A stretch of DNA of 64,000 nt from an uncultured Fibrobacteraceae bacterium (GTDB lineage Bacteria; Krumholzibacteriota; Krumholzibacteriia; LZORAL124-64-63). The notes below the pieces were generated by a model. That model was not told the DNA's origin and made no database searches. It was given only the letters and a program-made list of their open reading frames with translations. The position numbers and the translations under genes were made by a program. The stretch covers positions 20,308 to 84,307 of the forward strand of contig CAZTWK010000002.1 of the NCBI GenBank assembly GCA_964617805.1, read 5' to 3'. The number at the start of each line of letters is the position of its first letter. Within the stretch, counting starts at the first letter, position 1. Shown one piece after another: positions 1,501 to 42,818 of the stretch.

Positions 1501-1518
1501 TCTCCACCCGGGACTGGT

Positions 1519-1548: not shown

Positions 1549-1570
1549 GCCCGCCACCGGAAGCCGCATC

Positions 1571-1586: not shown

Positions 1587-1629
1587 GAAACATCTGCGAG
1601 TCCAAACGGATAACCGGGGAGACCCGTAG

Positions 1630-2115: not shown

Positions 2116-2147
2116 CGTCTTCCGTTGATCTTCCGCTTTCGCGCCGG

Positions 2148-2163
2148 TGGCATGGCCGTTGCG
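2148..2163 (+). promoter_or_regulatory. Sigma54 (-24/-12) promoter candidate for the chaperone-usher genes
   Basis: TGGCATG-GCCG-TTGCG with exact GG-N10-GC spacing, intergenic, ~80 nt before ATG 2244. Confidence 0.6.
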
Positions 2164-2243
2164 TTGCTGCCCTCCCGGATGTCCGCGCGGAGCCCGGATC
2201 CGCCGGAATCCCCGGCGATATTTGCCTGCAAGGAGGATGTCTT

Positions 2244-3113
2244 ATGGTTTGGTCGTGGTTGCGTCGCGCTTCCCTACTGGGACTATGGTCGGCAATCGTC
2301 CTGTGTGGCGGCGTTCTGGACACCCTGGCCAGCGGCCTGTCCATCGCGCCCATCCGGCTGGTCTTCGACGGCCGGTCGCGGGTGGCCACCGTCTATCTCA
2401 CCAACAAGAGCGACGAGGCGTCGACCTACCGCATCCTGGTGCGCGACAAGCGCATGCTCGAGAGCGGCCAGATCGTCGACGCGGAGGAGGCCTGGCCGGG
2501 CGAACGCTTCGCCAGCGAACTGCTGCGCTTCTCCCCCCGCCGCGTCGTGCTGGCGCCGGGCGAGAGCCAGACCGTGCGCGTCATGCTGCGCAATCCCAGC
2601 GAGGGACGCCTCGAGCACGGCGAGTACCGCACTCATCTGATCTTCCAGTCGGTGCCCAACGCGCCCACGCCCGAGGAGGCGGCGCGCCAGGACGGCCACA
2701 CCGTCGCCCAGGCCATCATCGAGACCAGCATCCCGGTGATCATCCGGCGTGACAACCCCGACGCCGCCGTCAGTTTCGCCGAGGCGGCCCTGGACACCGC
2801 CCGCACCCCCGACGGCCGTCCCCTGCTCGAGCTGGTGCTGGCCCGTGAGGGGGACCGCTCGGTCTACGGCGACATCACCGTGGACTGGATCGACGACAAC
2901 GGCCGCGGCCAGCCCGTGGCCAAGATCGTGGGCATCGCCGTCTACCATCCCACGCCGCGGCGTCAGATCAAGCTGCCGCTGGCGGTCTCCGACCCGAACG
3001 TCCTGAGCGAGGGGCGTCTGTACGTGCGCTTCGAGGAGAGCCCCCTGGGTCGGGGCGACCTGTGGACCGACACGACGGTGAACCTGGCCGCGGGGAGGAT
3101 CTTCGACCGATGA
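2244..3113 (+). CDS. Periplasmic fimbrial chaperone (PapD-like N-terminal domain)
   Basis: AAGGAGG RBS, signal peptide, LSIAPIRLVF, RFSPRRVVLAPGESQTVRV, GEYRTHLIF motifs. Confidence 0.8.
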   Translation: MVWSWLRRASLLGLWSAIVLCGGVLDTLASGLSIAPIRLVFDGRSRVATVYLTNKSDEASTYRILVRDKRMLESGQIVDAEEAWPGERFASELLRFSPRRVVLAPGESQTVRVMLRNPSEGRLEHGEYRTHLIFQSVPNAPTPEEAARQDGHTVAQAIIETSIPVIIRRDNPDAAVSFAEAALDTARTPDGRPLLELVLAREGDRSVYGDITVDWIDDNGRGQPVAKIVGIAVYHPTPRRQIKLPLAVSDPNVLSEGRLYVRFEESPLGRGDLWTDTTVNLAAGRIFDR

Positions 3114-5821
3114 AGCGCCTGCGGTACTGGACGGGATCCCCGGGCAACACGCTGTGGCTGGTGACGGCCCTGCTGTGCGGGTTGCTCTTCCTGGCCGGTG
3201 CCGCCGAAGCCCAGTCCCCCGCCGCGGCCGACCATCTCGGCGACGAGGACCTGGTGATCCTCGAGGTGCGCCTGGGCAACGAGGTCGTCAGCCCGGGCCT
3301 GATCGCCTTCCAGCATCCCGGCGGTGTCCTGATGCCCCTGGGCGCCCTGACCGACCTCCTGGAATTCGCCATCGACGTCCGGCCAGACCATGGCCGGGCC
3401 ACGGGGTGGTTCATCGACGAGTCGCGCCGCTTCGAGCTGGACCTGAACGCCGGCACGGTCGTCAGCGACGGCGTCACCGGGACCTGCGGCGCCGCCGACT
3501 CGGCCGCCGATATCGACGACATCTACGTGGACACCGTCCGCCTCGCGGAGTGGTTCCCCTTCGAGCTCGAGGTCTCGGTCATCCAGCTCCTGGCCAAGAT
3601 CTCGCCCAGCGAGACCCTGCCCCTGCAGAGCCGCCTCAAGCGCGAGGCCATCCGCTCACGCTCGCTGGAGAGCGAACTGCTCGCCGAACGCCTGCCCCTG
3701 CAGAAGGCCGACTACAGCATGTTCACCTGGCCGCTGGTGGACGCGAACCTGGAGTACCGGGGACGCGGGAACGACAGGGCCCCGCGCTTCTCCATCCAGA
3801 GCAGCGGCGACCTGGGCACCCTGGCCACCGACGTCTTCGTCACCCACACCGACGGCGCCAAGCTCATCAACGCCACGCGCCTGCGGGCCGGCCGCACCGA
3901 CGCCTACGGCGACCTGCTGGGGCCCCTGTGCGCCACGGAGTTCGCCTTCGGCGATCTCTACGCCCCCAGCACACCCCTGGTCCTGCGCGGCAAACTCGGC
4001 CGGGGTGTGATGCTCTCGAACCGTCCCCTGCGCCGCCCCGACCGCTTCGACAGTACCGAGATCAGCGGAGACGGACCACCCGGCTGGGAGGTCGAACTCT
4101 ACGGCAACAACGCCCTGTTGGACTTCGCCACCATCGACGAGACGGGCCGCTACCTCTTCACGGAGGTCCCCCTGGCCTTCGGCCGCAACGTCTTCCGCAC
4201 GGCGCTCTACGGCCCCCAGGGCCAGACGCGCGAGTTCACACGGGTGATGAACGTCGGCACCACCATGATCGCGCCCGGCAAGATCGAATACCGCCTGTTC
4301 GGGGTGCAGGACGAGCGATTCCTGATCACCGGCGACCAGCTCTTCGACGACACGCCCGACCGCGGTCGCTGGACCGGCCACCTCGAGGCGGGCTACGGCC
4401 TGGGCAAGCGCGTCTCCCTGCTCGGCGGCTACACGCGCCAACCCCTCGCGGGCGTGGACCGGGACTACCTGAGCCTCGTCGCCGACGGCAGCCTGAAGGG
4501 CTACCAGATGCAGGCCGTGGGCGTGCGCGCCCTCGCCGGCGGCAGCGCCGCCAGCTTCTCCATGCGGGGCGAGTTCCTGGGCCGCACCCTGACGGCCGAG
4601 CAGTTCATCTACAACGACTTCGTGAGCGACGCCAATCCCTTCGAGCAGCAGCGCACCTCGGAGACGCGGGTGCGCGTCGGGGGCAACACCCTCTGGAGCG
4701 GCCGCCACCTCGCCTACGACCTGCAGGTACAGACCACGGGCTTCATGGGCCGGGGCATCACCCGCCAGGATCGCGTGCAGCTGCGTGGGGCCACCCTCTG
4801 GCGCGGGTTGCAGGTGAGTTCCAAGCTGGACTTCCGCAACAGCAAGTCCGTCCTCGGCACCTACGACCAGCTCTTCGTGGACCAGCTGGCGCGCGGGGTC
4901 TGGGGACCGCTGATGCTGCGGGGCTCGGCCAGCGTGAGCATGAGACCGGAGACGGCCCTGAAGGCCGTCTCGGGCAGCGCCTACTGGAATCCGGTGGGAC
5001 GCATGCGGATGGGCGCCCACGCCACACACCGTTTCGACGACGCCGTGCCGACGACCGTCGGCGGCTCGCTCGGGTTGTTGATGGACACCTTCAGCGTGTC
5101 CGTGAGCGCCAGCGCCGCGGGCGACCAGTCGCCCTACTTGAGCGTCGCCATCTCCACCTCGATGACCAAGGTGCCCGAGACCATGCGCATGCACGTGCAG
5201 CGCCAGCGCATGTCGGCCGGCTACGGCGCCACCGCTCGCGTCTTCCTGGACCGCAACGCCAACGGCCACTGGGACGACCAGGACGACCCCCTGCCCGAGG
5301 TGCGCATCACCGGCGCCGGCGCCTGGAACGAGGGCGTCACCGGCGACAACGGCATCACCTATCTGGCCGGGCTGCCGGCCCACCGAGAGCGCGACCTGTC
5401 GGTGGACCTGGCCTCGCTGCAGGATCCCTTCCTGCTGCCCGCTCTGGAGGGTCTGCGGGCCACCGGTCACCCGGGTGGGCATGTGACACTGGAGTTCCCG
5501 GTCACCTTCTCCGGAGACATTGAGGGCACGGTCTACGCCCGCACGACGGCCGGCGACGTCCCCCTGCGCAACATCGGTCTGGAACTGGTGGATCTGAGCC
5601 AGCGCTCGATCCGCAAGACGGTGAGCGAGTTCGACGGATACTACCTGTTCCAGGAGATCCCGCCGGGCTGGTACGAGATCCACGTGATCCCGGAGACCCT
5701 GACGCGCAAAAACCTGCGCCTGCCGCCGCCGGTGGCCGCAGTCGTCCCGCCCGAGGGCGGCGTCTCCGACGGCAACGACTTCCTGCTGCGCTTCCAGGCG
5801 GGGCAGCGCGCGTCACGCTGA
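3110..5821 (+). CDS. Usher-like outer-membrane protein with C-terminal SdrD-B/carboxypeptidase-regulatory-like Ig domains
   Basis: ATGA overlap with the chaperone stop; signal peptide; ISGDGPPGWEVELYGNNALL plug-like motif; amphipathic beta-strands; VFLDRNANGHWD and SEFDGYYLFQEIPPGWYEI motifs. Confidence 0.75.
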   Translation: MKRLRYWTGSPGNTLWLVTALLCGLLFLAGAAEAQSPAAADHLGDEDLVILEVRLGNEVVSPGLIAFQHPGGVLMPLGALTDLLEFAIDVRPDHGRATGWFIDESRRFELDLNAGTVVSDGVTGTCGAADSAADIDDIYVDTVRLAEWFPFELEVSVIQLLAKISPSETLPLQSRLKREAIRSRSLESELLAERLPLQKADYSMFTWPLVDANLEYRGRGNDRAPRFSIQSSGDLGTLATDVFVTHTDGAKLINATRLRAGRTDAYGDLLGPLCATEFAFGDLYAPSTPLVLRGKLGRGVMLSNRPLRRPDRFDSTEISGDGPPGWEVELYGNNALLDFATIDETGRYLFTEVPLAFGRNVFRTALYGPQGQTREFTRVMNVGTTMIAPGKIEYRLFGVQDERFLITGDQLFDDTPDRGRWTGHLEAGYGLGKRVSLLGGYTRQPLAGVDRDYLSLVADGSLKGYQMQAVGVRALAGGSAASFSMRGEFLGRTLTAEQFIYNDFVSDANPFEQQRTSETRVRVGGNTLWSGRHLAYDLQVQTTGFMGRGITRQDRVQLRGATLWRGLQVSSKLDFRNSKSVLGTYDQLFVDQLARGVWGPLMLRGSASVSMRPETALKAVSGSAYWNPVGRMRMGAHATHRFDDAVPTTVGGSLGLLMDTFSVSVSASAAGDQSPYLSVAISTSMTKVPETMRMHVQRQRMSAGYGATARVFLDRNANGHWDDQDDPLPEVRITGAGAWNEGVTGDNGITYLAGLPAHRERDLSVDLASLQDPFLLPALEGLRATGHPGGHVTLEFPVTFSGDIEGTVYARTTAGDVPLRNIGLELVDLSQRSIRKTVSEFDGYYLFQEIPPGWYEIHVIPETLTRKNLRLPPPVAAVVPPEGGVSDGNDFLLRFQAGQRASR

Positions 5822-14819: not shown

Positions 14820-14867
14820 GTCAGCTCCTTCTGGCAGGGACGGCCCGTGCGGCGGTCCGTCTCCTGC

Positions 14868-14895
14868 AATGTACCACCCCGGCCCCGGGCTTCAA
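14868..14895 (-). promoter_or_regulatory. Sigma70 promoter of the tol-pal operon
   Basis: TTGAAG-N16-TACATT with extended -10 TGn. Confidence 0.5.
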
Positions 14896-14960
14896 GGGCG
14901 GATTGGGGCGGCCTCGCCATGATACGACGGCGGGGCCGTGGAGTTCCCGGCGCCCGCGGC

Positions 14961-16094
14961 TCAGCGCGCGGCCAGCACGCGGTCGTAGAGCTGCACGTAC
15001 TGCTGTATCACGCAAGGGGTTCCGAAGCGGGCCACCGCGTCACGCAGCCCGTCGTCGGCGATCTGGCGGTAGAGCGGCTCGTCCGTGAGCAGGCGCACGG
15101 CCGTCTCGATCCAGGCCCCGAGATCCTCGGGATCGTGCAGGAAGCTGTTGTGGCCGGTCTCGATGAACTCGGCCGTGCCGCCCACGTCGGTGGCGATCAC
15201 CGGCGTGCCGCAGGCCATGGATTCCAGGGCCACCAGGCCGAAGGACTCGTGCTGCGAGGGCAGCAGGGAGAGGTCGGCCACGGCCAGCAGGTCCTCCAGG
15301 GTCTCCACCTGGCCCAGGAAGGTGACGCGGTCGCTCACGCCCAGTTCGGCGGCCAGGCGCTCGGCGGGCCCCCGCTCGGGCCCCTCGCCCAGCAGCAGCA
15401 GGCGGCTGGGCACGGCCGCGGCGATGCCGGCGAAGATGCGCAGCACGTGGGGGATGTTCTTCACCGGTCGGAAGTTCGAGGCGTGCAGCACGATCCTCTC
15501 GTCCGGCGCGGCGTAGGCGGCGCGGTCGAGGTCGATGCGGGGCCGGAAGCGGCGGGGATCCACGAAGTTGGGGATCACCTCGATCCCGTTCCCGCAGCCG
15601 AAGACCCGGCGGGTCTCCTCGCGCAGGCTGGTGCTGACGGCGGTCACCGCGTCGCTCTCGGCGATCAGGAAGCGGGTCATCTCGAAGTAGGAGGGCTCCT
15701 GGCCCACCAGGGTGATGTCGGTCCCGTGCAGGGTCGTGATCATGGAGATGCGCTCGCGACCCAGCATGCTGCGGGCCAGGTAGGCACTCGCGGCGTGGGG
15801 GATGGCGTAGTGCACGTGCAGCACGTCCAGGTCGTGGTGGCGGGCCACCTCGCACATCTTGGTGGCCAGGGCCAGGGTGTAGGGCGTGTGCCGGAACACG
15901 GGATAGGAGACGGCCTCGACCTGGTGGAAGAAGATGTTCCGCTCGTAGCGTTGCAGGCGCACCGGCATGGCGTCGGTGATGAAGTGCACCTCGTAGCCGC
16001 GCCGGGCCAGGTTCAGGCCCAGTTCGCTGGCCACGATGCCGCTGCCGCCGGCGGTCGGGTAGCAGGTGATGCCGATGACGGGCAGGCGGTTCAC
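14961..16094 (-). CDS. bshA: N-acetyl-alpha-D-glucosaminyl L-malate synthase (GT4)
   Basis: IGITCYPTAGGSG, HVHYAIPHA, TTLHGTDIT, ESFGL; GTG start overlaps the bshB1 stop. Confidence 0.92.
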   Translation of the reverse strand: MNRLPVIGITCYPTAGGSGIVASELGLNLARRGYEVHFITDAMPVRLQRYERNIFFHQVEAVSYPVFRHTPYTLALATKMCEVARHHDLDVLHVHYAIPHAASAYLARSMLGRERISMITTLHGTDITLVGQEPSYFEMTRFLIAESDAVTAVSTSLREETRRVFGCGNGIEVIPNFVDPRRFRPRIDLDRAAYAAPDERIVLHASNFRPVKNIPHVLRIFAGIAAAVPSRLLLLGEGPERGPAERLAAELGVSDRVTFLGQVETLEDLLAVADLSLLPSQHESFGLVALESMACGTPVIATDVGGTAEFIETGHNSFLHDPEDLGAWIETAVRLLTDEPLYRQIADDGLRDAVARFGTPCVIQQYVQLYDRVLAAR

Positions 16095-16858
16095 GACCAG
16101 CGCTCCCCCGGCAGATCCCGGTAGACGGGCGCGCCCTCCACGTGCAGGGCCTCCGCCAGCTCCACGCCCGCCCGGAAGCCCCAGCTGCGGGCCCAGCGCT
16201 CGACCTCCTGCAGGAAGACCGGATCGTTGATCATGGTGGCGCGCGCACCGGCGCCGGGCTCGAACTGGCTGGCGTAGCAGCGCAGGGCCGCCACCTTGGC
16301 CGGCCAGACATCGCTCACGTCGAAGTAGACGTCGGGCTGCTCGGCGGGCAGGCAGACCGTGCAGACCGCCTCGCATTCCCAGCGCTCGGCCGCCTCCTGC
16401 AGGGTGGCGTCCCCGGGCCAGATCCGGGGCGCGGGCGTCGCGGGCCGCCAGGCGGCCAGGCGGGCCATGAAGGCGCCCTTGTGCACCAGGGCGGGAATGG
16501 CCCTGTGGTCGGGGTGGCGGTTGGGCATGGGGGCGGCCACCACCCAGCGGGGCCGCAGGCGCCGGATCACGTCGGCCACCACCGCCACCTGCTCGCTGTC
16601 CTGCTCGGAGATGAAGCCGTCGGGCAGGTCGAACTGGAGTCGGCCGGTGATGCCGAGGGCCTCCCCCGCGTCGGCCGCTTCGCGCCACCGCACCTCGGGG
16701 GTGCCGTTGGAACCCAGCTCGCCGCGGGTCAGGTCGCAGAGCCAGACCGTGCGGCCGGCCGCGGCCAGCCGGTGCAGGGTGCCGCCCAGGGCGATCTCCG
16801 CGTCGTCGCTGTGGGGCGAGATGCAGAGCAGGTCGCAGGTCGTCGCACCGTCGTTCAT
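16091..16858 (-). CDS. bshB1: Bacillithiol biosynthesis deacetylase (PIG-L family)
   Basis: PHSDDAEIALGGT, DLTRGELGSNGT, RHPDH, KVAALRCYASQF; lies between bshC and bshA. Confidence 0.88.
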   Translation of the reverse strand: MNDGATTCDLLCISPHSDDAEIALGGTLHRLAAAGRTVWLCDLTRGELGSNGTPEVRWREAADAGEALGITGRLQFDLPDGFISEQDSEQVAVVADVIRRLRPRWVVAAPMPNRHPDHRAIPALVHKGAFMARLAAWRPATPAPRIWPGDATLQEAAERWECEAVCTVCLPAEQPDVYFDVSDVWPAKVAALRCYASQFEPGAGARATMINDPVFLQEVERWARSWGFRAGVELAEALHVEGAPVYRDLPGERWS

Positions 16859-18402
16859 GAGCCGTCCTTTCCGCTGTCGACCAGGATGCGCCACTCGGTC
16901 CAGTCGCCCGCCGCGCCGGCGTCCAGGTGGGCGCGCGCCGCCGCCAGGGCGGCGGACACCAGGGAGTCGCCCCAGAGGGCCGCGGCCCAGTGCGTGGTCA
17001 GCGCGCGTTCCTGGCGTCCCTTGCCGGGCGCGTGCCAGGCCGGGCGTTTCGACTGTGTCGCGCGTGGCCGGGCCAGGCGCTCGAAGAGTCCCCGGTTGGC
17101 CGCCGACCAGCGCTCGAGATTGGGCGCGGCGAGGGCACGGGCCTCGTCCGGGGCGAGCCGGAAGAGGTCGCGCAGGGCGGCGTGCAGCGCGTCGGCCGCC
17201 GTGGTCTCCACCGTCGCGAGCGCCTCGTCCATGGCCTCGCCCAGGACGATGTCCTGGCCCGCCGCGCCGAGTGCGGCGTCACGCAGGTCGCAGAAGAGCC
17301 GCGGCAGCAGGGGCGGACGCGGCAGGTCCAGGGCCGCGTACACGGGTTCCGTCTGCTTGAGATAGGCCACCTCGGCCGGTCCGGCCACCACGCCGGCCGG
17401 CCGGAACAACCAGTCCTGGACCGGGGAGCGCAGCAGCACGCCGGGCCGCAGGGCCGACGGATCGTCCGGGGGCGCGTCCGCCGCGCCCAGACGTTGCCGT
17501 CGACCGTCCGTGGAGATGCTGAAGGGATTGGCCAGGGAGGCGTCGCCGATCTGGGCGTGGTAGCCGTCGGCGGCGAGACGCTCGCCGCGCTCGGTGGCAG
17601 CGTGGGCCAGGGCGCCGGTGTCGGCCAGCATACGCGCGTAGAGGGGACAGGCCACGGCGTGCAGCCGGGGATCGTCGCCCGAGACGACGAGCAGTCCGCG
17701 TCCGCCGAAGAGGCGCAGCAGGGCGCGTCTCTGGGTACGTGCCCAGGTCGTGCCCGCAGCCCGGGCCTCCGTCCAGATGCGCGCCAGGTCGCCGGCCAGG
17801 CCGTTGTGCGCCGCCTGCTCCGCGAGCCAGGCGGCCTCCCCCGCACCCGCCGACGCGGCCGGCAGGGCGCCCACCGAAGTGCCGGGCGGCGCCGCTGGGG
17901 GCACCGCGCGCAGCAGCGACCCGCGCCGTGGATCGTAGAGCCGGGGAGCGAAGGCCTCGCGCAGGTCGTCGTCGTCGTCGCCGGACCAGAACAGCGGCAC
18001 CGTGGGACGCCCGGCCTCGCTGCGGGCCTCGGCGGCGGCGATGCAGGTGGCCGCCTTGTAGAGGGTGTAGAGGGGACCGCCCAGGAAGCCGGGCTGCTGG
18101 CCGGTGACGATCACGTCGGCCTCGCCGGCGGTCAGGGCAGCCACGTTGGCGCGGCAACGCTCTGTCGCAACGGCGTCCGGCAGATCGGCCGCGAAATCCG
18201 TCCACCAGGCCTCGCGCCAGGCGTCGTCGGACCAGGCGGGCGCCGGTCCGTCCGGAGCCGGGGCCGCCAGGCAGGCGCGCCAGGACTCGGCCGCCGAGCC
18301 CAGGGGGCCGTCCCCCGCCAACCAGTCCCGCATCAGGGGGGGCAGGTCGGGGGCATCCGGCAGGGAGCCGCCGGGGGCAATGGGATGGACGTCGTCGCTC
18401 AT
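16855..18402 (-). CDS. bshC: Bacillithiol cysteine-adding enzyme
   Basis: IVTGQQPGFLGGPLYTLYKA, LRPGVLLRSPVQDWLF, GPAEVAYL.Q, QER motifs. Confidence 0.85.
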   Translation of the reverse strand: MSDDVHPIAPGGSLPDAPDLPPLMRDWLAGDGPLGSAAESWRACLAAPAPDGPAPAWSDDAWREAWWTDFAADLPDAVATERCRANVAALTAGEADVIVTGQQPGFLGGPLYTLYKAATCIAAAEARSEAGRPTVPLFWSGDDDDDLREAFAPRLYDPRRGSLLRAVPPAAPPGTSVGALPAASAGAGEAAWLAEQAAHNGLAGDLARIWTEARAAGTTWARTQRRALLRLFGGRGLLVVSGDDPRLHAVACPLYARMLADTGALAHAATERGERLAADGYHAQIGDASLANPFSISTDGRRQRLGAADAPPDDPSALRPGVLLRSPVQDWLFRPAGVVAGPAEVAYLKQTEPVYAALDLPRPPLLPRLFCDLRDAALGAAGQDIVLGEAMDEALATVETTAADALHAALRDLFRLAPDEARALAAPNLERWSAANRGLFERLARPRATQSKRPAWHAPGKGRQERALTTHWAAALWGDSLVSAALAAARAHLDAGAAGDWTEWRILVDSGKDGS

Positions 18403-18417
18403 ACCGTCTGTCTCACC

Positions 18418-19206
18418 TCACCGGGTCTTCTCGTAGATCAGGATCCAGCGCTCCGCGCTGTCCGCTGCGAAGGGACGCCCGTCGTAGCCGCCGAGGGCGC
18501 CGCGCCGGGTCAGTCCGGTCCGGCCCGCCAGGGCGTCGAGCTCCTCGGGCTCGAAGAGGGCCACGGCCTCGGTGTAGTCGAGGCCCTCGGGCGGCACGCC
18601 GCGGGCGGCCGCCTCGTCCAGCCGGTCCGGCAACGGATCGATGCGGACTCGCTTGAGGATGCGCGATCCGTCCGGATCCAGGCGCTTGGTCTCGCGCACC
18701 CGGCAGGGGCCCACCTCGCGCGCGGGGGTTTCCGCCGGTCGCGCCAGGTCCCGCCGGACCCGCCGGCCGTTCAGGTAGTCCAGGCTCCAGGTCCCGCCGG
18801 GTGCCAGCACGCGGGCGATCTCGGCCAGCAGGCCGCCGTGGGCGTCGAGGTCCCCGAAATAGCCGAAGGCCGTGAACAGGGACACCACGTTCGCGAAGGC
18901 CGCGTCGGCCAGCGGCAAGACCCGCATGTCGGCCCGCAGCAGACCCACCGGGGGCTGTCCGGCCGTGCGCTCCCGCGCGCGGCGCAGCAACGGGGCCGAG
19001 AGGTCCACGCCGACGAGGCCGTGCGCCGATCTCGCGGCCAGCGGGGCCAGGTGGCGCCCCTCGCCGCAGCCCAGGTCCAACACGCGCCCGGCCGCGAAGT
19101 CGACGATCCGCGCCAGGGCCGCGACGCAGGCGTCGGCCTCGGCCTCGTCGCGGTGGGCGTAGAGCCAGACGTAGTGCGCGCCGAAGGCGGTCTCGTACCA
19201 GGTCAT
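18418..19206 (-). CDS. Class I SAM-dependent methyltransferase
   Basis: VLDLGCGEGRH, GVDLS, RADMR, SLFTAFGYF; N-terminal WYETAFG.HY..LYAHRD. Confidence 0.88.
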   Translation of the reverse strand: MTWYETAFGAHYVWLYAHRDEAEADACVAALARIVDFAAGRVLDLGCGEGRHLAPLAARSAHGLVGVDLSAPLLRRARERTAGQPPVGLLRADMRVLPLADAAFANVVSLFTAFGYFGDLDAHGGLLAEIARVLAPGGTWSLDYLNGRRVRRDLARPAETPAREVGPCRVRETKRLDPDGSRILKRVRIDPLPDRLDEAAARGVPPEGLDYTEAVALFEPEELDALAGRTGLTRRGALGGYDGRPFAADSAERWILIYEKTR

Positions 19207-20855
19207 GCGCCCGCGGCTCCGTCCGGAGTGTCGGCCAGCAGACCGCTGTCGGCCCCGATCAGCGTGTCCTCGACGGCCGGGGCCTTGGCGGGATGGTCCA
19301 GGGTGTAATGCAGCCCCCGGCTCTCCCGCCGCTCCCGGGCGCAGAGGACGATCAACTCGGCGTTCAGCGCGATGTTGCGCAACTCGACCAGGTCCGGGCT
19401 GGGCACCGCGGCCTGGTAGGCGGTCTCCACCGTGGCGCGGATGTTGCGGATGCGGTCCAGGGCGATGTCCAGCCGGTGGCGCGTGCGGACGATGCCCACG
19501 TAGTCCCACATGACCCGCCGCACCACGTCCCAGTCGTGCTCGAGGATCATGGCCTCGGGACTCATGTCCACGCCGGGGTGGCCTTCCACCCGCAGGTGGC
19601 CCGAGCCGGCGGCGTCGGTCACGTCCGTGTCGAGCTCGGCGGCGGCCCGCGAGGCCTTCTCCGCGAAGTAGACGGCCTCCAGGAGCGAGTTGCTGGCCAG
19701 GCGGTTCGCGCCGTGGACGCCCGAGCAGGCCACCTCGCCGATGGCCAGCAGGCCCATGAGGTTGGAGCGGCCCCCGGCGTCGATGCGCACGCCCCCGCAC
19801 ATGTAGTGGGCGGCCGGCACCACGGGCACGGGGTCGCCCGCCATGTCGATGCCGAAACGGCGGCAGGTCTCGGTGAGGTGCGGGAAGCGCTCCTCCACGA
19901 AGTCCCGGTCCAGGTGGCGCAGGTCCAGGTGAACGCAGGGATCGCCGGTCAGCTTCAGTTCCTGGTCGATGGACCGCGCCACCACGTCCCGCGGTGCTAG
20001 CTCCAGCCGGGGATCGTAGCGCGGCATGAAGCGCTCGCCCCGCCCGTTGACCAGGTGCGCGCCCTCCCCCCGCACGGCCTCGGAGATGAGGAAGCTCTTG
20101 GCCTCGGCGTGGTACAGGCAGGTGGGATGGAACTGCACGAATTCCAGGTTGGCCAGCAGGGCGCCCGCCCGGTAGGCCATGGCCATGCCGTCGCCGGTGG
20201 CGATGTCGGGATTGGAGGTGTAGGCGTAGACCTTGCCGCAGCCGCCGGTGGCGAGCACCACCACGTCGGCCAGGTAGGGCGTGGTGGCCAGGATCTGACG
20301 GTCCAGCACCCAGCAGCCCGCCACCCGTTCGGGGGGCAGCCCCGCGCCGTCCAGATCGCAGCCCTTGATCAGGTCCAGGCCCACGTGGTTCTCGTCCAGC
20401 CGGATGCGGGGATGGTCGCGGCAGGCGGTGAGCAGGCACTTCTCCAGCTCGCGCCCGGTGAGGTCGGCGGCGTGGACGATGCGGTTGCGCGAGTGGCCGC
20501 CCTCGCGGCCGAGGGCCCAGGCCTCGCCGTCCTTGGCCCGGGTGAACTCCACCCCGTAGGCCAGCAGGCGGTCGATCAGGCGCGGCGCGGAGCCCACCAT
20601 GTCGCGCACGACGGCCTCGTCGCAGAGGCCGTCCCCGGCCACCAGGGTGTCCTGCACGTGGAACTCGAAGTCGTCGAGGGGCGAGAGCACGGCCGCGATG
20701 CCGCCCTGGGCGTAGTTGGTGTTGGACTCGAAGGATTCCTTCTTGGTGACGACGCGTACGTCGCCCTGCTCAGCGGCCAGGAGCGCGTACTGCAGGCCCG
20801 CGATGCCGGACCCGACCACCAGATGACGCGAGACGTTCGGTGCGCTGCGAGTCAC
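19203..20855 (-). CDS. nadB: L-aspartate oxidase
   Basis: VGSGIAG, YAQGGIA, REGGHSRNRIVH, EFVQFHPT, VPAAHYMCGG, GVHGANRLASNSLLE. Confidence 0.95.
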   Translation of the reverse strand: MTRSAPNVSRHLVVGSGIAGLQYALLAAEQGDVRVVTKKESFESNTNYAQGGIAAVLSPLDDFEFHVQDTLVAGDGLCDEAVVRDMVGSAPRLIDRLLAYGVEFTRAKDGEAWALGREGGHSRNRIVHAADLTGRELEKCLLTACRDHPRIRLDENHVGLDLIKGCDLDGAGLPPERVAGCWVLDRQILATTPYLADVVVLATGGCGKVYAYTSNPDIATGDGMAMAYRAGALLANLEFVQFHPTCLYHAEAKSFLISEAVRGEGAHLVNGRGERFMPRYDPRLELAPRDVVARSIDQELKLTGDPCVHLDLRHLDRDFVEERFPHLTETCRRFGIDMAGDPVPVVPAAHYMCGGVRIDAGGRSNLMGLLAIGEVACSGVHGANRLASNSLLEAVYFAEKASRAAAELDTDVTDAAGSGHLRVEGHPGVDMSPEAMILEHDWDVVRRVMWDYVGIVRTRHRLDIALDRIRNIRATVETAYQAAVPSPDLVELRNIALNAELIVLCARERRESRGLHYTLDHPAKAPAVEDTLIGADSGLLADTPDGAAGA

Positions 20856-20859
20856 GCTC

Positions 20860-21930
20860 TCATGCCTCCAGGTGCTCCAGGACGGCGCGCGCGGGATCGG
20901 CTCCGTCGCGCCAGGCCAGGTCGAGCCCCACCTCGTGCAGGGGCGGGGCGTGCGCCGGCCACAGGGACGCCAGCTTCACGCGATCCTTGGCCGTGGTCAG
21001 CCAGGCCCCCAGGCCCGCGGCCTCCCCCGCCGCCAGCACGTCGGCGACGTCGCCGCGGTCGTAGGCGGCGTGGTCGTCGAAGCGGGCGGCCAGCGCCGGC
21101 GCCGGACCGCACAGGGACGTGCAGGCCGCCTCGAATCGTTCCGGCGCGGCGATACCGCACACCACACCGTACGGCATATCCAGGGGTGTCGCCACGCCTT
21201 CCGGCAGGGCGACGCGGCGCTCGAAGCCCAGGAGCGTCGGGCCCGTATCCGGCTGGGACGGCAGCGTTTCGCCAGGCGCCAGCGGGAGCAGCCACACCGC
21301 CGCGCGCGCCGCCCCCGACGCGCCTTCGCGGTAGGGGCCCCAGGGCAACCGCAATCCCGTCTCGGGCACGACGCCGCCCGGCGTCCCGCACCAGCGGTCC
21401 AGAATCAGCAGGTCCAGGTGTCGTCCCTGGCCGGCGCACTGGTGGCCGTCCTCGAGGATCACGAGGCCGGGCGCATCCGGCAGCGATCGCAGCAGATCCA
21501 GGCCCGCCCGTCGGTCGCGCGCCTGCACGACCTTGGCGCCGGGCAGGCGTGCGGCCAGCAGGCGGGCCTCGTCTCCGCAGCAGGCGTCGCGAGCCTCGAC
21601 CCGAAGGGGGCCGCGATCGGCGGAGCCGTAGCCGCGGGTGACGACGGCGACGCCTCGTCCCGCGTCCAGCAGACGCGCGGCCAGGTCTAGCACCACGGGT
21701 GTCTTGCCGCTGCCGCCGGTGGCCAGGGCGCCCACCGAGATCACCCGGGGCGAGGGCGGCGGCGCCGCGCGGCCGGACAGACGGCGGCGCAGATCGGCGG
21801 CGGCGACGGCCGTGGTCAGCGGAGTCAGCAGGGAGAGCCAGCGGGGCGGCGCAGCGTCCCAGCGGCGCCAGAGCTCCTGGACGCCCCGGCCGAGCCGGCC
21901 ACGGCGTTCGAGCACGCGGGTCCCGCTCAC
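20860..21930 (-). CDS. lpxK: Tetraacyldisaccharide 4'-kinase
   Basis: VISVGALATGGSGKTP, TRGYG, GDEA.LLA, ILEDGHQ, F.DH..Y, TTAKD.VKL; GTG start at 21930. Confidence 0.88.
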   Translation of the reverse strand: MSGTRVLERRGRLGRGVQELWRRWDAAPPRWLSLLTPLTTAVAAADLRRRLSGRAAPPPSPRVISVGALATGGSGKTPVVLDLAARLLDAGRGVAVVTRGYGSADRGPLRVEARDACCGDEARLLAARLPGAKVVQARDRRAGLDLLRSLPDAPGLVILEDGHQCAGQGRHLDLLILDRWCGTPGGVVPETGLRLPWGPYREGASGAARAAVWLLPLAPGETLPSQPDTGPTLLGFERRVALPEGVATPLDMPYGVVCGIAAPERFEAACTSLCGPAPALAARFDDHAAYDRGDVADVLAAGEAAGLGAWLTTAKDRVKLASLWPAHAPPLHEVGLDLAWRDGADPARAVLEHLEA

Positions 21931-22535
21931 GACGCGGCCTCCGGCGCCAGGAGCGAGGCCGCCAGCCGGCGGGCCCAGTCCGCGATCTGCGCCTCCCCCG
22001 CGTCGGGGGGCACGACCAGGGCCTCGCCCTCCGCCACGGCGATGCGCGAGAAGGGCAGGGGCAGGACCGTGCGGTCCCAGTTGCTCAGCGCCAGGTGCCG
22101 GCCCGAACGACGCGTCAGGGGCACGATGGGCGCGCCCGTCAGGCGGGAGAGCTGGACCACGCCGTCGCGCACCACGCCGAAGGGTCCGCGGGGCCCGTCC
22201 ACGGCGATGCCCACGGCCGTGCCGCGCCTGAGCGCGCCCAGCAGTTCGCGGAAGGCCCGGCCGCCCTCCTTGCCGGTGGACCCGCGCACGAAGGCGTAGC
22301 CGTCCCGGCCCAGCGTGCGGATCAGGATGTCCCCGTCGGGGCTGCGGCTGACCAGCAGGGCGGGCCGGGCGCCCTTGACGTGCAGGATGGCGGGTATGAT
22401 GTCCCGGTGCAGGCAGGCGAAGATGACCGGTCCGTCCCCGGGACGCCGGGGCGTACCTCCGCCGTCGAGCCGGATGCTCGCGTTGAACATCCGGTAGAGC
22501 GGGGGGGCGAACCACATTTTGAGCCGGCCCAGCAT
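21927..22535 (-). CDS. DUF374 lysophospholipid-acyltransferase-superfamily protein (LpxJ-like)
   Basis: SRSPDG, VRGST, VDGPRGP, QLSRLTGAPIVP, SNWDR..LPLPFSR. Confidence 0.8.
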   Translation of the reverse strand: MLGRLKMWFAPPLYRMFNASIRLDGGGTPRRPGDGPVIFACLHRDIIPAILHVKGARPALLVSRSPDGDILIRTLGRDGYAFVRGSTGKEGGRAFRELLGALRRGTAVGIAVDGPRGPFGVVRDGVVQLSRLTGAPIVPLTRRSGRHLALSNWDRTVLPLPFSRIAVAEGEALVVPPDAGEAQIADWARRLAASLLAPEAAS

Positions 22536-22536
22536 C

Positions 22537-23703
22537 TCACTCCCGGGGAACTAGGGACATGGCGGCCTCGGCGGCGCGCGTCCACACGCCCGGCGGGCCG
22601 AGGGCCTCGCGCAGGGCGTCCACGCCCGAGGCGTAGCGGGCCCGGCGCGTCCCGTCCTGCAGCCAGTCGGCCAGGTCGTCGGCCAGGACCGCCGGCGCGG
22701 CGGCGTCCTGCACGAACTCGCGGACCAGGTCGCGGCCGAGGATCAGGTTCGCCAGGCCGATGCGCTCGATGCGCACCAGCCGGCGCGCCACGAAGTCGTT
22801 GAAGCCCGAGGTCCGGTACGCGACGGCGTGGGGGACGCCGGCCAGGGCCGCCTCCAGCGAGGCCGTGCCGCTGCAGACGAGAGCCAGGTCCAGCTCCCGC
22901 AGCAGCCGGTCCAGGGGCGCGTCGGAAACCTCGACCCCGGCGGCCGTTGCCGGGGCCAGCGCATCGTCGTCCACACCCGGGGCGCGACTGACGACACACC
23001 TGAAACTACGGCCGCCGGCCGCGTTCTTCAACCGGGCGGCCGCGTCCAGCAAGACCGGCAGCAGGCGCGCCAGCTCCTGGCGGCGGCTGCCCGGGAGCAG
23101 GCCTACGGTGAGTGTCGCCGCCTCGTCGTTGAGGCGCGCCTCCCGCGCGGCCCGGTCGCGGTCCGCGTCCGCCTTGCGGTAGACCTCGCGCAGGGGGTGG
23201 CCGAGCCAGGCCGTCGGCACGCGGCGCCTGGCGAAGAAGTCCGGCTCGAAGGGCAGCACGACGCCCAGCAGATCCACCGCGCGTCGCAGCTTGCCCGCGC
23301 GCCAGGCGCCCCAGGCCCAGAGCTGGGGGGCCACCAGGTAGAAGACGGGGATGCCGCGGCGCCGGGCGAAGGTGGCGAGGCCGAGGTTGAAGCCGGGGGC
23401 GTCCACGGGCACGAAGAGGTCGACGGCCGCGTCGGCCAGGTGGCGGTGCAGGGCGCGCCGGGCGCGCCAGACCGCGGGCAGCGCGCCCAGGGCCTCGCCG
23501 AAGCCCATGACCGACAGGGGCGCGCGGTCGTGGACGATCTCCACGCCGGCGTCCGCCAGGATCTCCCCGCCCAGGGCCGAGAACCGCGCGCCGGGATGGC
23601 GCGCCCGCAGGGCGCGGACCAGCTCCGCGCCGTAGCGCTCGCCGCTGGCCTCGCCGCAGGACAGGAATACGTGCAGGGATGGGGAGGCCGGCTTATCCGA
23701 CAT
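22537..23703 (-). CDS. lpxB: Lipid-A-disaccharide synthase
   Basis: SCGEASGE, VDAPGFN, APQLWAW, LLPGSRRQE, CSGTASLEAAL, IGLANLI. Confidence 0.92.
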   Translation of the reverse strand: MSDKPASPSLHVFLSCGEASGERYGAELVRALRARHPGARFSALGGEILADAGVEIVHDRAPLSVMGFGEALGALPAVWRARRALHRHLADAAVDLFVPVDAPGFNLGLATFARRRGIPVFYLVAPQLWAWGAWRAGKLRRAVDLLGVVLPFEPDFFARRRVPTAWLGHPLREVYRKADADRDRAAREARLNDEAATLTVGLLPGSRRQELARLLPVLLDAAARLKNAAGGRSFRCVVSRAPGVDDDALAPATAAGVEVSDAPLDRLLRELDLALVCSGTASLEAALAGVPHAVAYRTSGFNDFVARRLVRIERIGLANLILGRDLVREFVQDAAAPAVLADDLADWLQDGTRRARYASGVDALREALGPPGVWTRAAEAAMSLVPRE

Positions 23704-23751
23704 GGCGCGGCTCCTCGAGGATGGTCGGCGGCCCGGTCCGGGCCGCCCGGA

Positions 23752-24558
23752 TCAGCGGACGATGCCCCGCTCGGAACGGCGGATGAAGGCCATCAGCTCC
23801 TCGAGATGCGTGTCGAGCTGGCAGACCAGCGCCATCTGCTCCAGCGCCTGGCTGACGTTCAGGCCGCTGCGGTAGAGGAGCCGGTACGCCTTCTTCAGGT
23901 TGACCAGGGCTTCCTCGCTGAAGCCGCGCCGCTTCATGCCCACGCTGTTGAGCCCGCAGACCTCCACGGGGCTGCCGGCCACGCGGACAAACGGCGGCAC
24001 GTCCTGCGCGACCCGGCTGCCGCCGCCGATGAAGGCGTGGGCGCCGATGCGGACGAACTGGTGCACGGGCGTCATGCCGCCCAGGATCGCCCAGTCCCCG
24101 ATCTTGACGTGGCCCGCCAGGTTGACGGCGTTGGCCAGCACGAGGCTGTCGCCGAGGACGCAGTTGTGCGCGATGTGCACGTAGGCCATCAGCAGGTTGT
24201 TGTCGCCGATGCGCGTGGTCTCGTTCTCGCCCGAGGCGAGATGGACGGTGACGTACTCGCGGATCGTGTTGTGGTCCCCGATCTCCACGTAGCTGACCTC
24301 GTCGGCGTACTTGAAGTCCTGGGGGGGGAGACCGATCACGGCGCCGGGAAAGATCTTGTTGCCGTTGCCGATGGTCGTGCGGCCGTCGATGACCACCGAG
24401 GAGGCGATCTCGCAGTCCGCGCCGATGGTCACGTTGGGCCCGATCAGCGTGAAGGGGCCGATCTTGACGTTGTGACCGATCCGGGCGTCGGGGTGTACGA
24501 CCGCGGTCGGATGGATATCCGGCTTGCGCACGGGACGCAGCTTGGACGCCCGCTTCAT
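23752..24558 (-). CDS. lpxA: UDP-N-acetylglucosamine acyltransferase
   Basis: IHPTAVV hexapeptide repeats, PQDFKY, IREYVTVH, HIAHNC, VHQFVRIG, GLNSVGMKRRGF; a TTG start at 24570 is also possible. Confidence 0.93.
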   Translation of the reverse strand: MKRASKLRPVRKPDIHPTAVVHPDARIGHNVKIGPFTLIGPNVTIGADCEIASSVVIDGRTTIGNGNKIFPGAVIGLPPQDFKYADEVSYVEIGDHNTIREYVTVHLASGENETTRIGDNNLLMAYVHIAHNCVLGDSLVLANAVNLAGHVKIGDWAILGGMTPVHQFVRIGAHAFIGGGSRVAQDVPPFVRVAGSPVEVCGLNSVGMKRRGFSEEALVNLKKAYRLLYRSGLNVSQALEQMALVCQLDTHLEELMAFIRRSERGIVR

Positions 24559-24592: not shown

Positions 24593-25906
24593 TCAGCGGT
24601 CCACGATGGTGGACATGAGATCCGCCTCGGCCACTTTTTCACCGTCCACGTAAGCCACGCCGCTCATCTTGCAGATGGGACCACGCAGCTTGACCAGTTC
24701 CAGCTCGAAGCGGATCTGGTCGCCGGGTGTGACGGGTTTCCGGAATCTTGCGCCATCGATACCGCTGAAGTAAACAAGTTTCGACTCTGGGTTGTCGACG
24801 CTGCTCATCAGCAGAACCCCCCCCACCTGCGCCATGGCCTCGGTGATCAGCACGCCGGGCATGATCGGGTGGTCGGGGAAGTGCCCCTGGAAGAAGGGCT
24901 CGTTCACGCTCACGTTCTTGATGCCCACCACCCGCTTGCCGGCCTCGAACTCGATGATGCGGTCCACGAGCAGGAAGGGATAGCGGTGCGGCATGACCTT
25001 CATGATGGACGAGATGTCCCAGTAGGTCGGATTGCGCGGCGGATAGATGCGCGAGGCCTTGCGTTCCTTGCGCGCCATCAGCCGGGTCAGCGCCAGGTTG
25101 CCGTCGTGACCGGCGCGGCGCGCGATCACGTGCCCCTGGATGGGCATGCCCAGCAACGCCAGGTCGCCGATCAGGTCCAGCACCTTGTGGCGCACGAACT
25201 CGTCGGGGAAGCGCAGGGTCAGGTCGTTCACCAGCTCGCCGTTCTCCACGATCAGGGCGTTCTCGAGGGTGCCCCCCTGCCCCAGGCCCATGGAGTGGAG
25301 CTTCTCGACGTCGTTGCGCAGGGCGAAGGTCCGGCAGGGCGCGATCTCGCGCTTGTAGATCTCGGGGCGCACCTCGCAGCCGAACTCCTGGACCCCGATC
25401 AGGGGGTCGTCGTAGGCGATCTGGCAGGTGACGCGGAAGGTCTCGCAGGGCTCCACGCGCAGGGAGACGTCCCCGTCGCTCCAGGAGATCGGCTGGTCGA
25501 CGTGCAGGTAGTTGCCGGGCAGCCCCTGGCTGACCACGCCCACGGACTCGAGCAGCTCCACGTAGTCGACGGTGCTGCCGGCCTTGGGCTCGGGCGGTTC
25601 GGGACCGTCGAGCTCCACGTAGCAGTTGGTGACGCCCAGGCCCGTCAGGGCCGAGAGCACGTGCTCGACGGTCTGGATCTCGGCGCCGCCGGCGGCCAGC
25701 TTGGTGTTGCGCAGGCCGCCGTGGTCCTCGGGCACGTTCTCGATCAGCGCGGGCACGTCCACCCGTCCGTCGGCCGTGGCCACCCGGAAGACGATGCCGG
25801 TGTTCACCGGCGCCGGCAGGAAGGCGACGGTGACGGGAGCGCCCGAATGGAGGGCGGTGCCCGTCATCTCGGCCCGGTCGCCCACGGTCCTCTGCAGGTA
25901 CAGCAC
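24593..25906 (-). CDS. lpxC-fabZ: Bifunctional LpxC deacetylase / FabZ dehydratase
   Basis: [29 protein letters not shown], then [31 protein letters not shown]. Confidence 0.95.
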
Positions 25907-30076: not shown

Positions 30077-32563
<2,487 letters not shown>

Positions 32564-32724
32564 GCTGTCGCGCCTCCATTCGCCTTGTCGGTCGGCAGTC
32601 CGCGGCGGGGGCCGTAAGGCTGCCGATAATATACGGCACGCCCGCGGCAACGACCACCGGCCGGGCGGCATCATACCATAGTATCGTTCAACTGGGCAGC
32701 AACTTGAGGAATCCTGCGCTCCGC

Positions 32725-42802: not shown

Positions 42803-42818
42803 CTCGGGGTCCTTCCGG

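What the first reader, a model, noticed from the sequence alone, without database searches (positions are those of the whole stretch)
14961..19206. Complete bacillithiol operon headed by a SAM methyltransferase: candidate N-methyl-bacillithiol pathway
Seen: methyltransferase > bshC > bshB1 > bshA, contiguous, with a 15-nt gap and then 4-nt overlaps. Established: BshA/B/C make bacillithiol, and Chlorobiaceae N-methylate it using the SAM methyltransferase NmbA. Inference: this enzyme is an NmbA-like or other BSH-modifying methyltransferase, extending modified-BSH chemistry to this lineage. A fully clustered bshCBA set is itself notable because these genes are often scattered.
Basis: partly seen in the sequence, partly recalled or inferred. 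Interest (0 to 1): 0.62.

Follow-up and report, generated by a model that had tools for sequence, protein, structure and literature searches.

The report
NmbA-like methyltransferase in bacillithiol operon
An uncultured marine bacterium, probably Krumholzibacteria-like, carries a tightly packed four-gene set predicted to make the antioxidant thiol bacillithiol and N-methylate it; this is a sound annotation and a modest extension of a pathway already predicted in more than 1,700 species.

Summary
On the minus strand lie a 262-aa class I SAM methyltransferase (19206-18418), a 15-nt gap, then bshC (18402-16855), bshB1 (16858-16091) and bshA (16094-14961), joined by 4-nt overlaps.

The methyltransferase belongs to the NmbA family, in a divergent subclade. 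Its best solved-structure match by sequence is Chlorobaculum tepidum NmbA (9RI2): E 2.5e-19, full length, ten orders of magnitude ahead of the next hit. A profile built only from Chlorobi, Ignavibacteria and Bacteroidota-type NmbA homologues scores it 150 bits end to end. Generic methyltransferases score 75 bits or less, over the Rossmann core only.

In 36 of 66 NmbA-like loci from other genomes the methyltransferase is immediately followed by bshC. These span about ten phylum-level lineages, and many carry the full MT-bshC-bshB-bshA cassette.

- The cluster is not headed by the methyltransferase here. nadB overlaps its start by 4 nt, and genes are tightly packed from ompH and lpxD down to bshA.
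- A clustered bsh set is common among these loci, so it is not unusual.

The most likely product is N-methyl-bacillithiol. This is a new member of a known kind. The conserved nmbA-bshC linkage is absent from the four NmbA papers I read.

The parts
18418..19206 (-). nmbA-like gene: 262-aa class I SAM-dependent methyltransferase, predicted bacillithiol N-methyltransferase
   Evidence: Pfam Methyltransf_25/11; no NCBIfam hit reaches its cutoff. Best PDB sequence hit is 9RI2 CtNmbA, E 2.5e-19, residues 3-257 against 16-258. Classic-NmbA HMM gives 150 bits end to end, and this is the only ORF in the window that hits it. AF2 model pLDDT 94.9, Rossmann core plus beta-strand Cap.
16855..18402 (-). bshC: cysteine-adding enzyme, 515 aa, divergent
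   Evidence: PF10079 138.6 bits. TIGR03998 164 bits, below its cutoff of 265.8. The only PDB hit is BshC 4WBD, E 1.5e-15, with the GQQxGxxGGPLYTxxK motif aligned. No CC_BshC (PF24850) hit, unlike the homologues in L084 and L085.
16091..16858 (-). bshB1: GlcNAc-malate deacetylase, 255 aa
   Evidence: TIGR04001 185.6 bits (cutoff 182.5); PF02585 PIG-L. 4-nt overlap with the bshC stop.
14961..16094 (-). bshA: GT4 N-acetylglucosaminyl-L-malate synthase, 377 aa, GTG start
   Evidence: TIGR03999 491 bits (cutoff 273.7), full length. 4-nt overlap with the bshB stop.
19203..20855 (-). nadB: L-aspartate oxidase, 550 aa. Immediately upstream; its stop overlaps the MTase ATG (ATGA)
   Evidence: NF006567 638.7 bits (cutoff 629). 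Overlap read directly. nadB sits immediately upstream of the MT in 13 of the 14 closest loci; the exception, L009, is a 4.2-kb contig with only about 1.1 kb upstream.
20860..21930 (-). lpxK, ending 4 nt before nadB. It is the last gene of the tightly packed lipid A run (ompH-lpxD-lpxC/fabZ-lpxA-lpxB-DUF374-lpxK) that leads into nadB and the thiol genes
   Evidence: Gene calls and Pfam hits on identical contigs L081-L083, converted to window coordinates.
14820..14960 (-). 141-nt intergenic spacer between the bshA stop and the tolQ start. It is the first sizeable gap downstream, so it is the likely 3' end of the unit
   Evidence: Sequence read; gene calls; no terminator-like site found there.

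Best explanation
The region encodes a complete pathway for N-methyl-bacillithiol. From established pathway knowledge:
1. BshA condenses UDP-GlcNAc with L-malate.
2. BshB1 removes the acetyl group.
3. BshC adds cysteine to give bacillithiol (BSH).

The 262-aa methyltransferase is a divergent member of the NmbA family. It is inferred to use SAM to methylate the alpha-amino nitrogen of the cysteine of reduced BSH, giving N-Me-BSH as this organism's main low-molecular-weight thiol.

The four genes form a conserved cassette, MT-bshC-bshB-bshA, with overlapping stop and start codons, which suggests translational coupling. In this lineage, probably Krumholzibacteria-like, the cassette sits directly behind nadB at the end of a long co-directional lipid A gene run.

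Shown here: gene identities, boundaries, family membership by sequence, and conservation of linkage. Inferred: co-transcription, enzyme activity and the product.
For: (1) Sequence.
- CtNmbA (9RI2) is the top solved-structure match: E 2.5e-19, covering both the Cap and Rossmann parts. The next hit is at 2.3e-09 and covers the core only.
- blastp against CtNmbA gives 29% identity over 243 aa, E 4.5e-23. Intermediate homologues from Gemmatimonadota and Calditrichota that sit next to bshC are 36-39% identical to CtNmbA.

(2) Profile. An HMM built only from CtNmbA plus Ignavibacteria, Bacteroidota, Chlamydiota and Vicinamibacterales homologues, with none bshC-linked and none from this clade, scores the window protein 150 bits over positions 6-247 of 249. 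Unrelated class I MTases score 30-75 bits over positions ~37-157 only.

(3) Family-specific residues are conserved in the window protein: W3, F8, Y12, Y16, H18, R19, D20, R51, R95, F111, F114-G-Y-F117 and K185. These correspond to Ct W16, F21, Y26, Y30, H32, R33, D34, R70, R114, F129, F132-F135 and K198. W16, R70 and K198 are among the binding and entry-site residues listed in PMC12719100, and Y134 and F135 are its proposed adenine-stabilising residues.

(4) Genomic context. The MT is directly followed by bshC in 36 of 66 NmbA-like loci. Lineages include Krumholzibacteria-like, Calditrichota, Anaerolineae, Gemmatimonadota, Eisenbacteria, Lentisphaerales, Zixibacteria, Holophagae, Aminicenantia, Hatepunaea and Planctomycetaceae. 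L084 carries the same cassette with 4-nt overlaps.

(5) A rough NJ tree puts CtNmbA inside the ingroup, next to Ignavibacteriaceae.

(6) The AF2 model (pLDDT 94.9) matches the same structural neighbours that PMC12719100 lists for CtNmbA: CypM 7WZG, 3D2L and 9RI2 itself. Other top matches, CcbJ and TylM1, are amine N-methyltransferases.

(7) CtNmbA and P. polymyxa NmbA methylate BSH in vitro, and deleting CT1040 abolishes N-Me-BSH (PMC12719100, PMC6282198).
Against: - Identity to the only structurally characterised NmbA is low, at 29%. That is below the 35% floor used for the NmbA sequence-similarity network in PMC12719100.
- Two of the five pocket and entry residues named there are not conserved. 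Ct W20 is Ala in this whole clade, and Ct H31 is Ala here, although H31 varies across the family.
- The clade has a roughly 12-19 residue insertion in the Cap region, predicted as a helix at 193-201.
- Fold search does not separate NmbA from other small-molecule N- and C-methyltransferases: CypM ranks first and 9RI2 fourth.
- BshC falls below NCBIfam's equivalog cutoff.
- No biochemical, metabolite or transcript data exist for this organism. RNA runs from the same study hold none of the sequence.
- The NJ tree has no support values.
Confidence: 0.8

Rival explanations
1. The methyltransferase works in the bacillithiol pathway but makes a different product from classic NmbA. Candidates are N,N-dimethyl-BSH, methylation of an intermediate such as GlcN-malate, or methylation of another atom. 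The cause would be an altered Cap pocket in this clade.
For: Ct W20 is Ala in all 15 clade members, while most other family members keep Trp. There is a clade-specific Cap insertion. Identity to CtNmbA is only 29%. PMC12719100 reports that NmbA can methylate a secondary amine in a by-product, so further methylation is chemically within reach.
Against: All other family-specific Cap and pocket residues are conserved. The match to the classic NmbA profile is end to end. Linkage to bshC, the last BSH step, is what a BSH-modifying enzyme would show. There is no positive evidence for another product.
Confidence: 0.1
2. The cluster makes a bacillithiol-like thiol that is not BSH, because the divergent BshC adds a different moiety or is not a true BshC. 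The methyltransferase would then act on that variant thiol.
For: BshC scores 164 bits against a 265.8-bit equivalog cutoff and has no detectable CC_BshC C-terminal domain hit. BshB1 only just clears its cutoff.
Against: BshA is a strong equivalog at 491 bits. The only PDB relative of the BshC is B. subtilis BshC, with the conserved GQQ...GGPLYT motif aligned. BshC is generally divergent outside Bacillota, and homologues in the same syntenic position across phyla join one jackhmmer family with scores of 275-602.
Confidence: 0.05
3. The methyltransferase is a generic class I enzyme unrelated to thiol metabolism. It would sit there by chance, or serve nadB or lipid A functions, since it is translationally coupled to nadB.
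For: Only generic Pfam methyltransferase domains hit, and no NCBIfam match reaches its cutoff. The ATGA overlap with nadB is conserved in the clade.
Against: MT-bshC adjacency holds in 23 loci outside this clade, of which only L022 has a nadB nearby. In L084 the MT follows a 65-nt gap and starts the cassette. The full-length NmbA-specific match stands.
Confidence: 0.03

Closest known systems
NmbA (CT1040) of Chlorobaculum tepidum, N-methyl-bacillithiol synthase; PDB 9RI2 (Hiras 2018, PMC6282198; Hammerstad 2025, PMC12719100)
   Same: Similar length (262 against 266 aa). Class I SAM MTase with an N-terminal plus inserted beta-strand Cap. Full-length homology. Conserved W..F...Y...YxHRD N-terminal motif, VLDxxCGxGRH motif I, RxDMR, FxxFGYF, and the Cap lysine (Ct K198). 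Occurs in a genome with bshA, bshB and bshC.
   Different: 29% identity. Ct W20 becomes Ala. The Cap loop is longer, with a predicted helix. In Cba. tepidum the named pathway genes carry widely separated locus numbers (nmbA CT1040, bshB CT1419, bshC CT1558), whereas here all four are contiguous. Activity is unproven here.
MT-bshC(-bshB-bshA) cassettes in MAGs of Gemmatimonadota, Acidobacteriota (Holophagae, Aminicenantia), Anaerolineae, Planctomycetaceae, Calditrichota, Zixibacteria and others, found here (L015-L045, L084, L085)
   Same: Same gene order and strand, often with the same 4-nt overlaps. Their MTases are 33-43% identical to the window protein and 32-40% identical to CtNmbA.
   Different: In L084 the MT follows a 65-nt gap and begins the cassette; upstream context of the other loci was not examined. 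Here and in the closest relatives nadB is fused on upstream. In the Gemmatimonadota, Calditrichota and Zixibacteria loci only MT-bshC is linked.
Bacillus subtilis bsh genes (bshB1-bshA in one operon, bshC elsewhere; from my own knowledge of Gaballa et al. 2010)
   Same: Same three enzymatic steps to BSH. bshB1 and bshA are adjacent.
   Different: No nmbA there, so BSH is not methylated. bshC is unlinked. Gene order differs.
CypM (7WZG), CcbJ, TylM1 and DesVI: natural-product N-methyltransferases
   Same: Closest folds to the AF2 model (TM 0.65-0.76). All are SAM-dependent and methylate amines.
   Different: Sequence similarity is limited to the Rossmann core (E 1e-5 to 1e-9). The substrates differ: a peptide N-terminus, or amino sugars.

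Membership tests
NmbA (BSH N-methyltransferase) | Class I SAM MTase core with motif I (VLDIAxGxG in CtNmbA) and aromatic motif IV/V residues (Ct Y134, F135) | tested here: met
   Window has VLDLGCGEG at 42-50 and Y116/F117 aligned to Ct Y134/F135. Pfam Methyltransf_25 70.6 bits.
NmbA (BSH N-methyltransferase) | Full-length homology to a validated NmbA, including the Cap segments, and closer to it than to any other characterised MTase | tested here: met
   9RI2 is the top PDB hit, E 2.5e-19, residues 3-257 against 16-258; the next hit is 2.3e-09 over the core only. Classic-NmbA HMM gives 150 bits over 6-247 of 249, against 75 bits or less for outgroups.
NmbA (BSH N-methyltransferase) | Substrate and entry-site residues named for CtNmbA (W16, W20, H31, R70, K198) | tested here: inconclusive
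   W16, R70 and K198 are conserved as W3, R51 and K185. W20 is A7 in the whole clade. H31 is A17, but that position varies across the family.
NmbA (BSH N-methyltransferase) | At least 35% identity to NmbA homologues (the SSN criterion of PMC12719100) | tested here: inconclusive
   29% to CtNmbA itself. 36-43% to bshC-linked homologues of other phyla, which are in turn 32-40% identical to CtNmbA.
NmbA (BSH N-methyltransferase) | Co-occurrence with bshA, bshB and bshC in the same genome | tested here: met
   All three lie directly downstream.
NmbA (BSH N-methyltransferase) | Catalyses SAM-dependent N-methylation of reduced BSH | not testable with these tools
   Needs an enzyme assay or thiol metabolite analysis.
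NmbA (BSH N-methyltransferase) | Crystal-type narrow 'molecular basket' Cap topology | not testable with these tools
   PMC12719100 reports that AlphaFold mispredicts this topology even for CtNmbA. The model here resembles CypM and 3D2L more than 9RI2 (TM 0.76 against 0.66).
BshA (TIGR03999) | Score above the equivalog cutoff, full length | tested here: met
   491.2 bits against 273.7, residues 7-374.
BshB1 (TIGR04001) | Score above the equivalog cutoff | tested here: met
   185.6 bits against 182.5, a marginal pass. BshB2 scores 45 bits and MshB 34 bits.
BshC (TIGR03998 / PF10079) | Score above the curated cutoffs | tested here: inconclusive
   Pfam N-terminal domain 138.6 bits against 27, met. 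NCBIfam equivalog 164.1 bits against 265.8, not met. The only PDB relative is BshC 4WBD.
Operon (single transcription unit) | Co-transcription of MT, bshC, bshB and bshA | not testable with these tools
   4-nt overlaps, a 15-nt gap and conserved order suggest it. No RNA reads are available. The promoter and terminator scan was uninformative.

The most novel reading that the evidence does not exclude
The Krumholzibacteria-like NmbA subclade may have a remodelled substrate basket: 29% identity to CtNmbA, Trp-to-Ala at the Ct W20 entry position, and an extra Cap helix. It could therefore make a thiol not yet described, for example N,N-dimethyl-bacillithiol or a methylated BSH variant. Its translational coupling to nadB might reflect coordinated control of NAD and thiol redox pools.
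Probability: 0.08. Interest if true: 0.6.

Novelty: new member of a known kind. Interest (0 to 1): 0.3.

Why it matters
It gives a firm functional annotation to a protein that databases call only 'class I SAM-dependent methyltransferase'. It predicts that N-methyl-bacillithiol is the redox-buffer thiol of an uncultured marine lineage, probably Krumholzibacteria-like.

The by-product of the check is more useful than the single locus. nmbA is physically linked to bshC, and often to the whole bshCBA set, in about ten phylum-level lineages. This is independent genomic-context support for the NmbA function, which so far rests on one knockout, two enzyme assays and gene co-occurrence. None of the four NmbA papers I read mentions the linkage. 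It could serve as a simple rule for annotating NmbA in MAGs.

It does not open a new kind of biology.

Tried and rejected
- A locus search with a 17-sequence alignment that included CtNmbA failed, because no stretch was conserved enough. It was repeated with 9 closer sequences.
- The genome-contig hits did not include Chlorobaculum, Polaribacter or Paenibacillus. No validated NmbA other than the 9RI2 sequence fragment (recovered from the alignment) could therefore go into the tree. A true reciprocal best hit against the Cba. tepidum genome was not possible.
- The Foldseek search confirmed the fold but could not discriminate NmbA from CypM, CcbJ or TylM1.
- The promoter and terminator scan found nothing above shuffle expectation and nothing relevant near the cluster.
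- Sequencing-run search gave only marine DNA metagenomes holding the sequence. The metatranscriptomes of the same study hold 0.00 of the words, so co-transcription could not be tested.
- I looked for other BSH-system genes (Bdr/YpdA, bacilliredoxins, DinB-type S-transferases) with Pfam scans of the larger ORFs in the rest of the window and found none. The ORF-poor gaps noted under 'noticed in passing' were not scanned.
- I rejected recent horizontal transfer as the explanation for the raised GC, because nadB-MT-bshCBA is conserved throughout the clade.
Full report
**1. What is there**

The window is high-GC (66-75%). From about 7 kb to 64 kb nearly every gene lies on the minus strand. In the flagged interval, in-frame start and stop positions and independent gene calls on three metagenome contigs that carry the identical protein agree on these boundaries:

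| Gene | Coordinates (minus strand) | Length | Junction with the next gene |
|---|---|---|---|
| Methyltransferase | 19206-18418 | 262 aa, ATG | 15-nt spacer |
| bshC | 18402-16855 | 515 aa | 4-nt overlap |
| bshB1 | 16858-16091 | 255 aa | 4-nt overlap |
| bshA | 16094-14961 | 377 aa, GTG | 141-nt gap to tolQ |

**2. Identity of the BSH genes**

- BshA is a clear equivalog: TIGR03999, 491 bits against a cutoff of 273.7.
- BshB1 passes narrowly: TIGR04001, 185.6 bits against 182.5.
- BshC passes Pfam PF10079 (138.6 bits) but not the NCBIfam equivalog cutoff (164 bits against 265.8). Its only relative among solved structures is B. subtilis BshC (4WBD, E 1.5e-15), with the GQQxGxxGGPLYT motif aligned. 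I read it as a divergent but genuine BshC.

**3. Identity of the methyltransferase**

Curated libraries see only generic class I domains (Methyltransf_25/11), and no NCBIfam match reaches its cutoff. Against all PDB sequences, the best match is 9RI2 chain A (E 2.5e-19), aligned over residues 3-257 of 262. The next match is at 2.3e-09 and covers only the Rossmann core. 9RI2 is the crystal structure of Chlorobaculum tepidum NmbA, the enzyme shown to N-methylate BSH (PMC12719100; genetics in PMC6282198).

Direct blastp of the 9RI2 sequence fragment gives 29% identity and E 4.5e-23 to the window protein. It gives 32-40% identity and E values down to 1e-47 to homologues from other phyla.

I then built an HMM from 'classic' NmbA-type sequences only: CtNmbA plus Ignavibacteriaceae, Bacteroidota, Chlamydiota and Vicinamibacterales homologues. 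None of them is bshC-linked and none comes from this clade. The results:
- The window protein scores 150 bits over profile positions 6-247 of 249.
- It is the only ORF in the 64-kb window that hits.
- Unrelated class I MTases score 30-75 bits, over positions ~37-157 only.

Residues specific to the family are conserved:
- the N-terminal Cap motif W3, F8, Y12, Y16, H18, R19, D20;
- R51, R95, F111 and F114-G-Y-F117;
- the Cap lysine K185.

Two differences stand out. Ct W20, one of the entry-site residues named in PMC12719100, is alanine in all 15 members of this clade. The clade also carries a longer Cap loop.

In a rough NJ tree without support values, CtNmbA sits inside the ingroup next to Ignavibacteriaceae, and the window protein sits in a clade with L001-L014.

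**4. Structure**

**5. Neighbourhood conservation**

A scan of one genome per GTDB species gave 80 loci. I searched them with the window's NadB, BshA, BshB and BshC by tblastn and jackhmmer. Sixty-six loci (L001-L066) carry an NmbA-like match, and almost all of these matches are full length.

In 36 of the 66, bshC follows the MT directly:
- **Closest relatives (13 loci, 45-62% identity).** Records are labelled Krumholzibacteriia, 'bacterium' or, probably wrongly, Fibrobacteraceae. Twelve show nadB-MT-bshC-bshB-bshA; the thirteenth, L009, is a short contig with neither end of the cluster. A fourteenth close relative, L013, ends 234 nt after the MT.
- **Other lineages (23 loci).** These are Calditrichota, Anaerolineae, Gemmatimonadota/Longimicrobiales, Eisenbacteria, Lentisphaerales, Zixibacteria, Holophagae, Aminicenantia, Hatepunaea, Planctomycetaceae and unclassified MAGs.

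Within the 23, the extent of linkage varies:
- The full MT-C-B-A cassette appears in nine loci, from Anaerolineae (two), Lentisphaerales, Holophagae, Aminicenantia, Hatepunaea, Planctomycetaceae and two unclassified MAGs.
- Only MT-bshC is linked in the Gemmatimonadota, Calditrichota and Zixibacteria loci.

Two further contigs with precomputed annotation show MT-bshC-bshB-bshA with 4-nt overlaps, preceded by a 65-nt gap (L084), and MT-bshC-bshA (L085).

The classic NmbA groups (Ignavibacteriaceae, Bacteroidota, Chlamydiota) lack the linkage. This matches the widely separated locus numbers of the pathway genes in Cba. tepidum (CT1040, CT1419, CT1558).

**6.

- **'Headed by a methyltransferase'.** The nadB stop overlaps the MT start (ATGA), and lpxK ends 4 nt before nadB. 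From ompH through lpxD, lpxC/fabZ, lpxA, lpxB, DUF374, lpxK, nadB and the MT to bshA, no intergenic gap exceeds about 50 nt. The first real gap is the 141 nt before tolQ. The cassette is thus embedded at the end of an envelope-biogenesis gene run. Whether it has an internal promoter is unknown.
- **'A clustered set is notable'.** The clustered set is common among these lineages.
- **'Extending the chemistry to this lineage'.** NmbA plus BshABC had already been predicted in 1,765 RefSeq species across Chlorobiota, Bacteroidota, Bacillota, Balneolota, Gemmatimonadota, Rhodothermota and others. One more uncultured lineage is incremental.

**7. Mechanism proposed**

BshA, BshB1 and BshC make BSH. 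The NmbA-like enzyme then transfers a methyl group from SAM to the cysteinyl amine of reduced BSH by SN2 attack, giving N-Me-BSH. Overlapping stop and start codons suggest stoichiometric co-expression. Confidence is about 0.8.

The main rival is that the same pathway yields an altered product because of the W20A change and the Cap insertion (about 0.1). The remaining rivals are a variant thiol made by the divergent BshC (about 0.05) and an unrelated methyltransferase (about 0.03).

**8. Novelty**

This is a new member of a known kind. The four NmbA papers in the library (PMC6282198, its 2017 preprint, PMC6336425 and PMC12719100) contain no mention of an operon, adjacency, neighbourhood or clustering of nmbA with bsh genes. 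No paper in the library combines Krumholzibacteria with bacillithiol. The conserved nmbA-bshC linkage is therefore a small, apparently unreported, supporting observation.

**9. Source**

The sequence is held by marine metagenome DNA runs. No transcript data were found.

Noticed in passing
window 37241-37310, minus strand: prfB (release factor 2) carries the classic programmed +1 frameshift site. The ATG at 37310 opens a 22-codon frame that ends AGG GGG... GGT CTT TGA C. The PCRF domain ORF (37153-36203) continues in the +1 frame, and its Pfam match starts only at profile position 30.
   Followed up: partly
window 16001-24000: GC content is 74-75.5% here, against 66-70% on both sides. The stretch covers bshC, bshB, the MT, nadB, lpxK, DUF374 and lpxB. 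Because the gene order is conserved across the clade, this is probably not a recent transfer, but the cause was not examined.
   Followed up: no
window ~7000-64000: Roughly 45 consecutive genes all lie on the minus strand. They include the run bamA-ompH-lpxD-lpxC/fabZ-lpxA-lpxB-DUF374-lpxK-nadB-nmbA-bshCBA-tolQRA-tolB-pal-cpoB. This is an unusually long co-directional, tightly packed block.
   Followed up: partly
window 24593-25906, minus strand: A single 437-aa product carries both LpxC and FabA/FabZ-type dehydratase domains, i.e. an lpxC-fabZ fusion.
   Followed up: no
window 1003-5821, plus strand: The only plus-strand cluster: two DUF4402 proteins, a PapD-like chaperone and a 919-aa protein with weak SdrD_B/CarboxypepD_reg hits. 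It looks like an archaic chaperone-usher (Csu-type) pilus locus.
   Followed up: no
window 60177-63963, minus strand: Three consecutive GT9 heptosyltransferase-family genes. The last (532 aa) is fused to a HAD phosphatase domain, possibly GmhB-like.
   Followed up: no
window 16855-18402; L084 7741-9378; L085 6083-7564: The window BshC (515 aa) gives no hit to the BshC C-terminal coiled-coil domain (PF24850). The syntenic BshCs in L084 and L085 do hit it.
   Followed up: no
L022 5940-7445 and 8001-8708: A Gemmatimonadota locus also has nadB about 550 nt upstream of its NmbA-like gene. The nadB-nmbA association may therefore not be confined to the Krumholzibacteria-like clade.
   Followed up: no
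window 30077-33397, minus strand: The ClpC/ClpB-type AAA+ ORF is 1,106 aa when read from the first start codon, but the best Clp_N match lies at residues 372-422. The true start is probably well downstream, or the protein has an unusual N-terminal extension.
   Followed up: no
window 40975-42107, 42802-44240, 50500-52084: A GC3-based ORF filter picked no clear minus-strand gene in these stretches. The 231-aa (42107-42802) and 240-aa (52084-52806) ORFs nearby have no Pfam hit.
   Followed up: no
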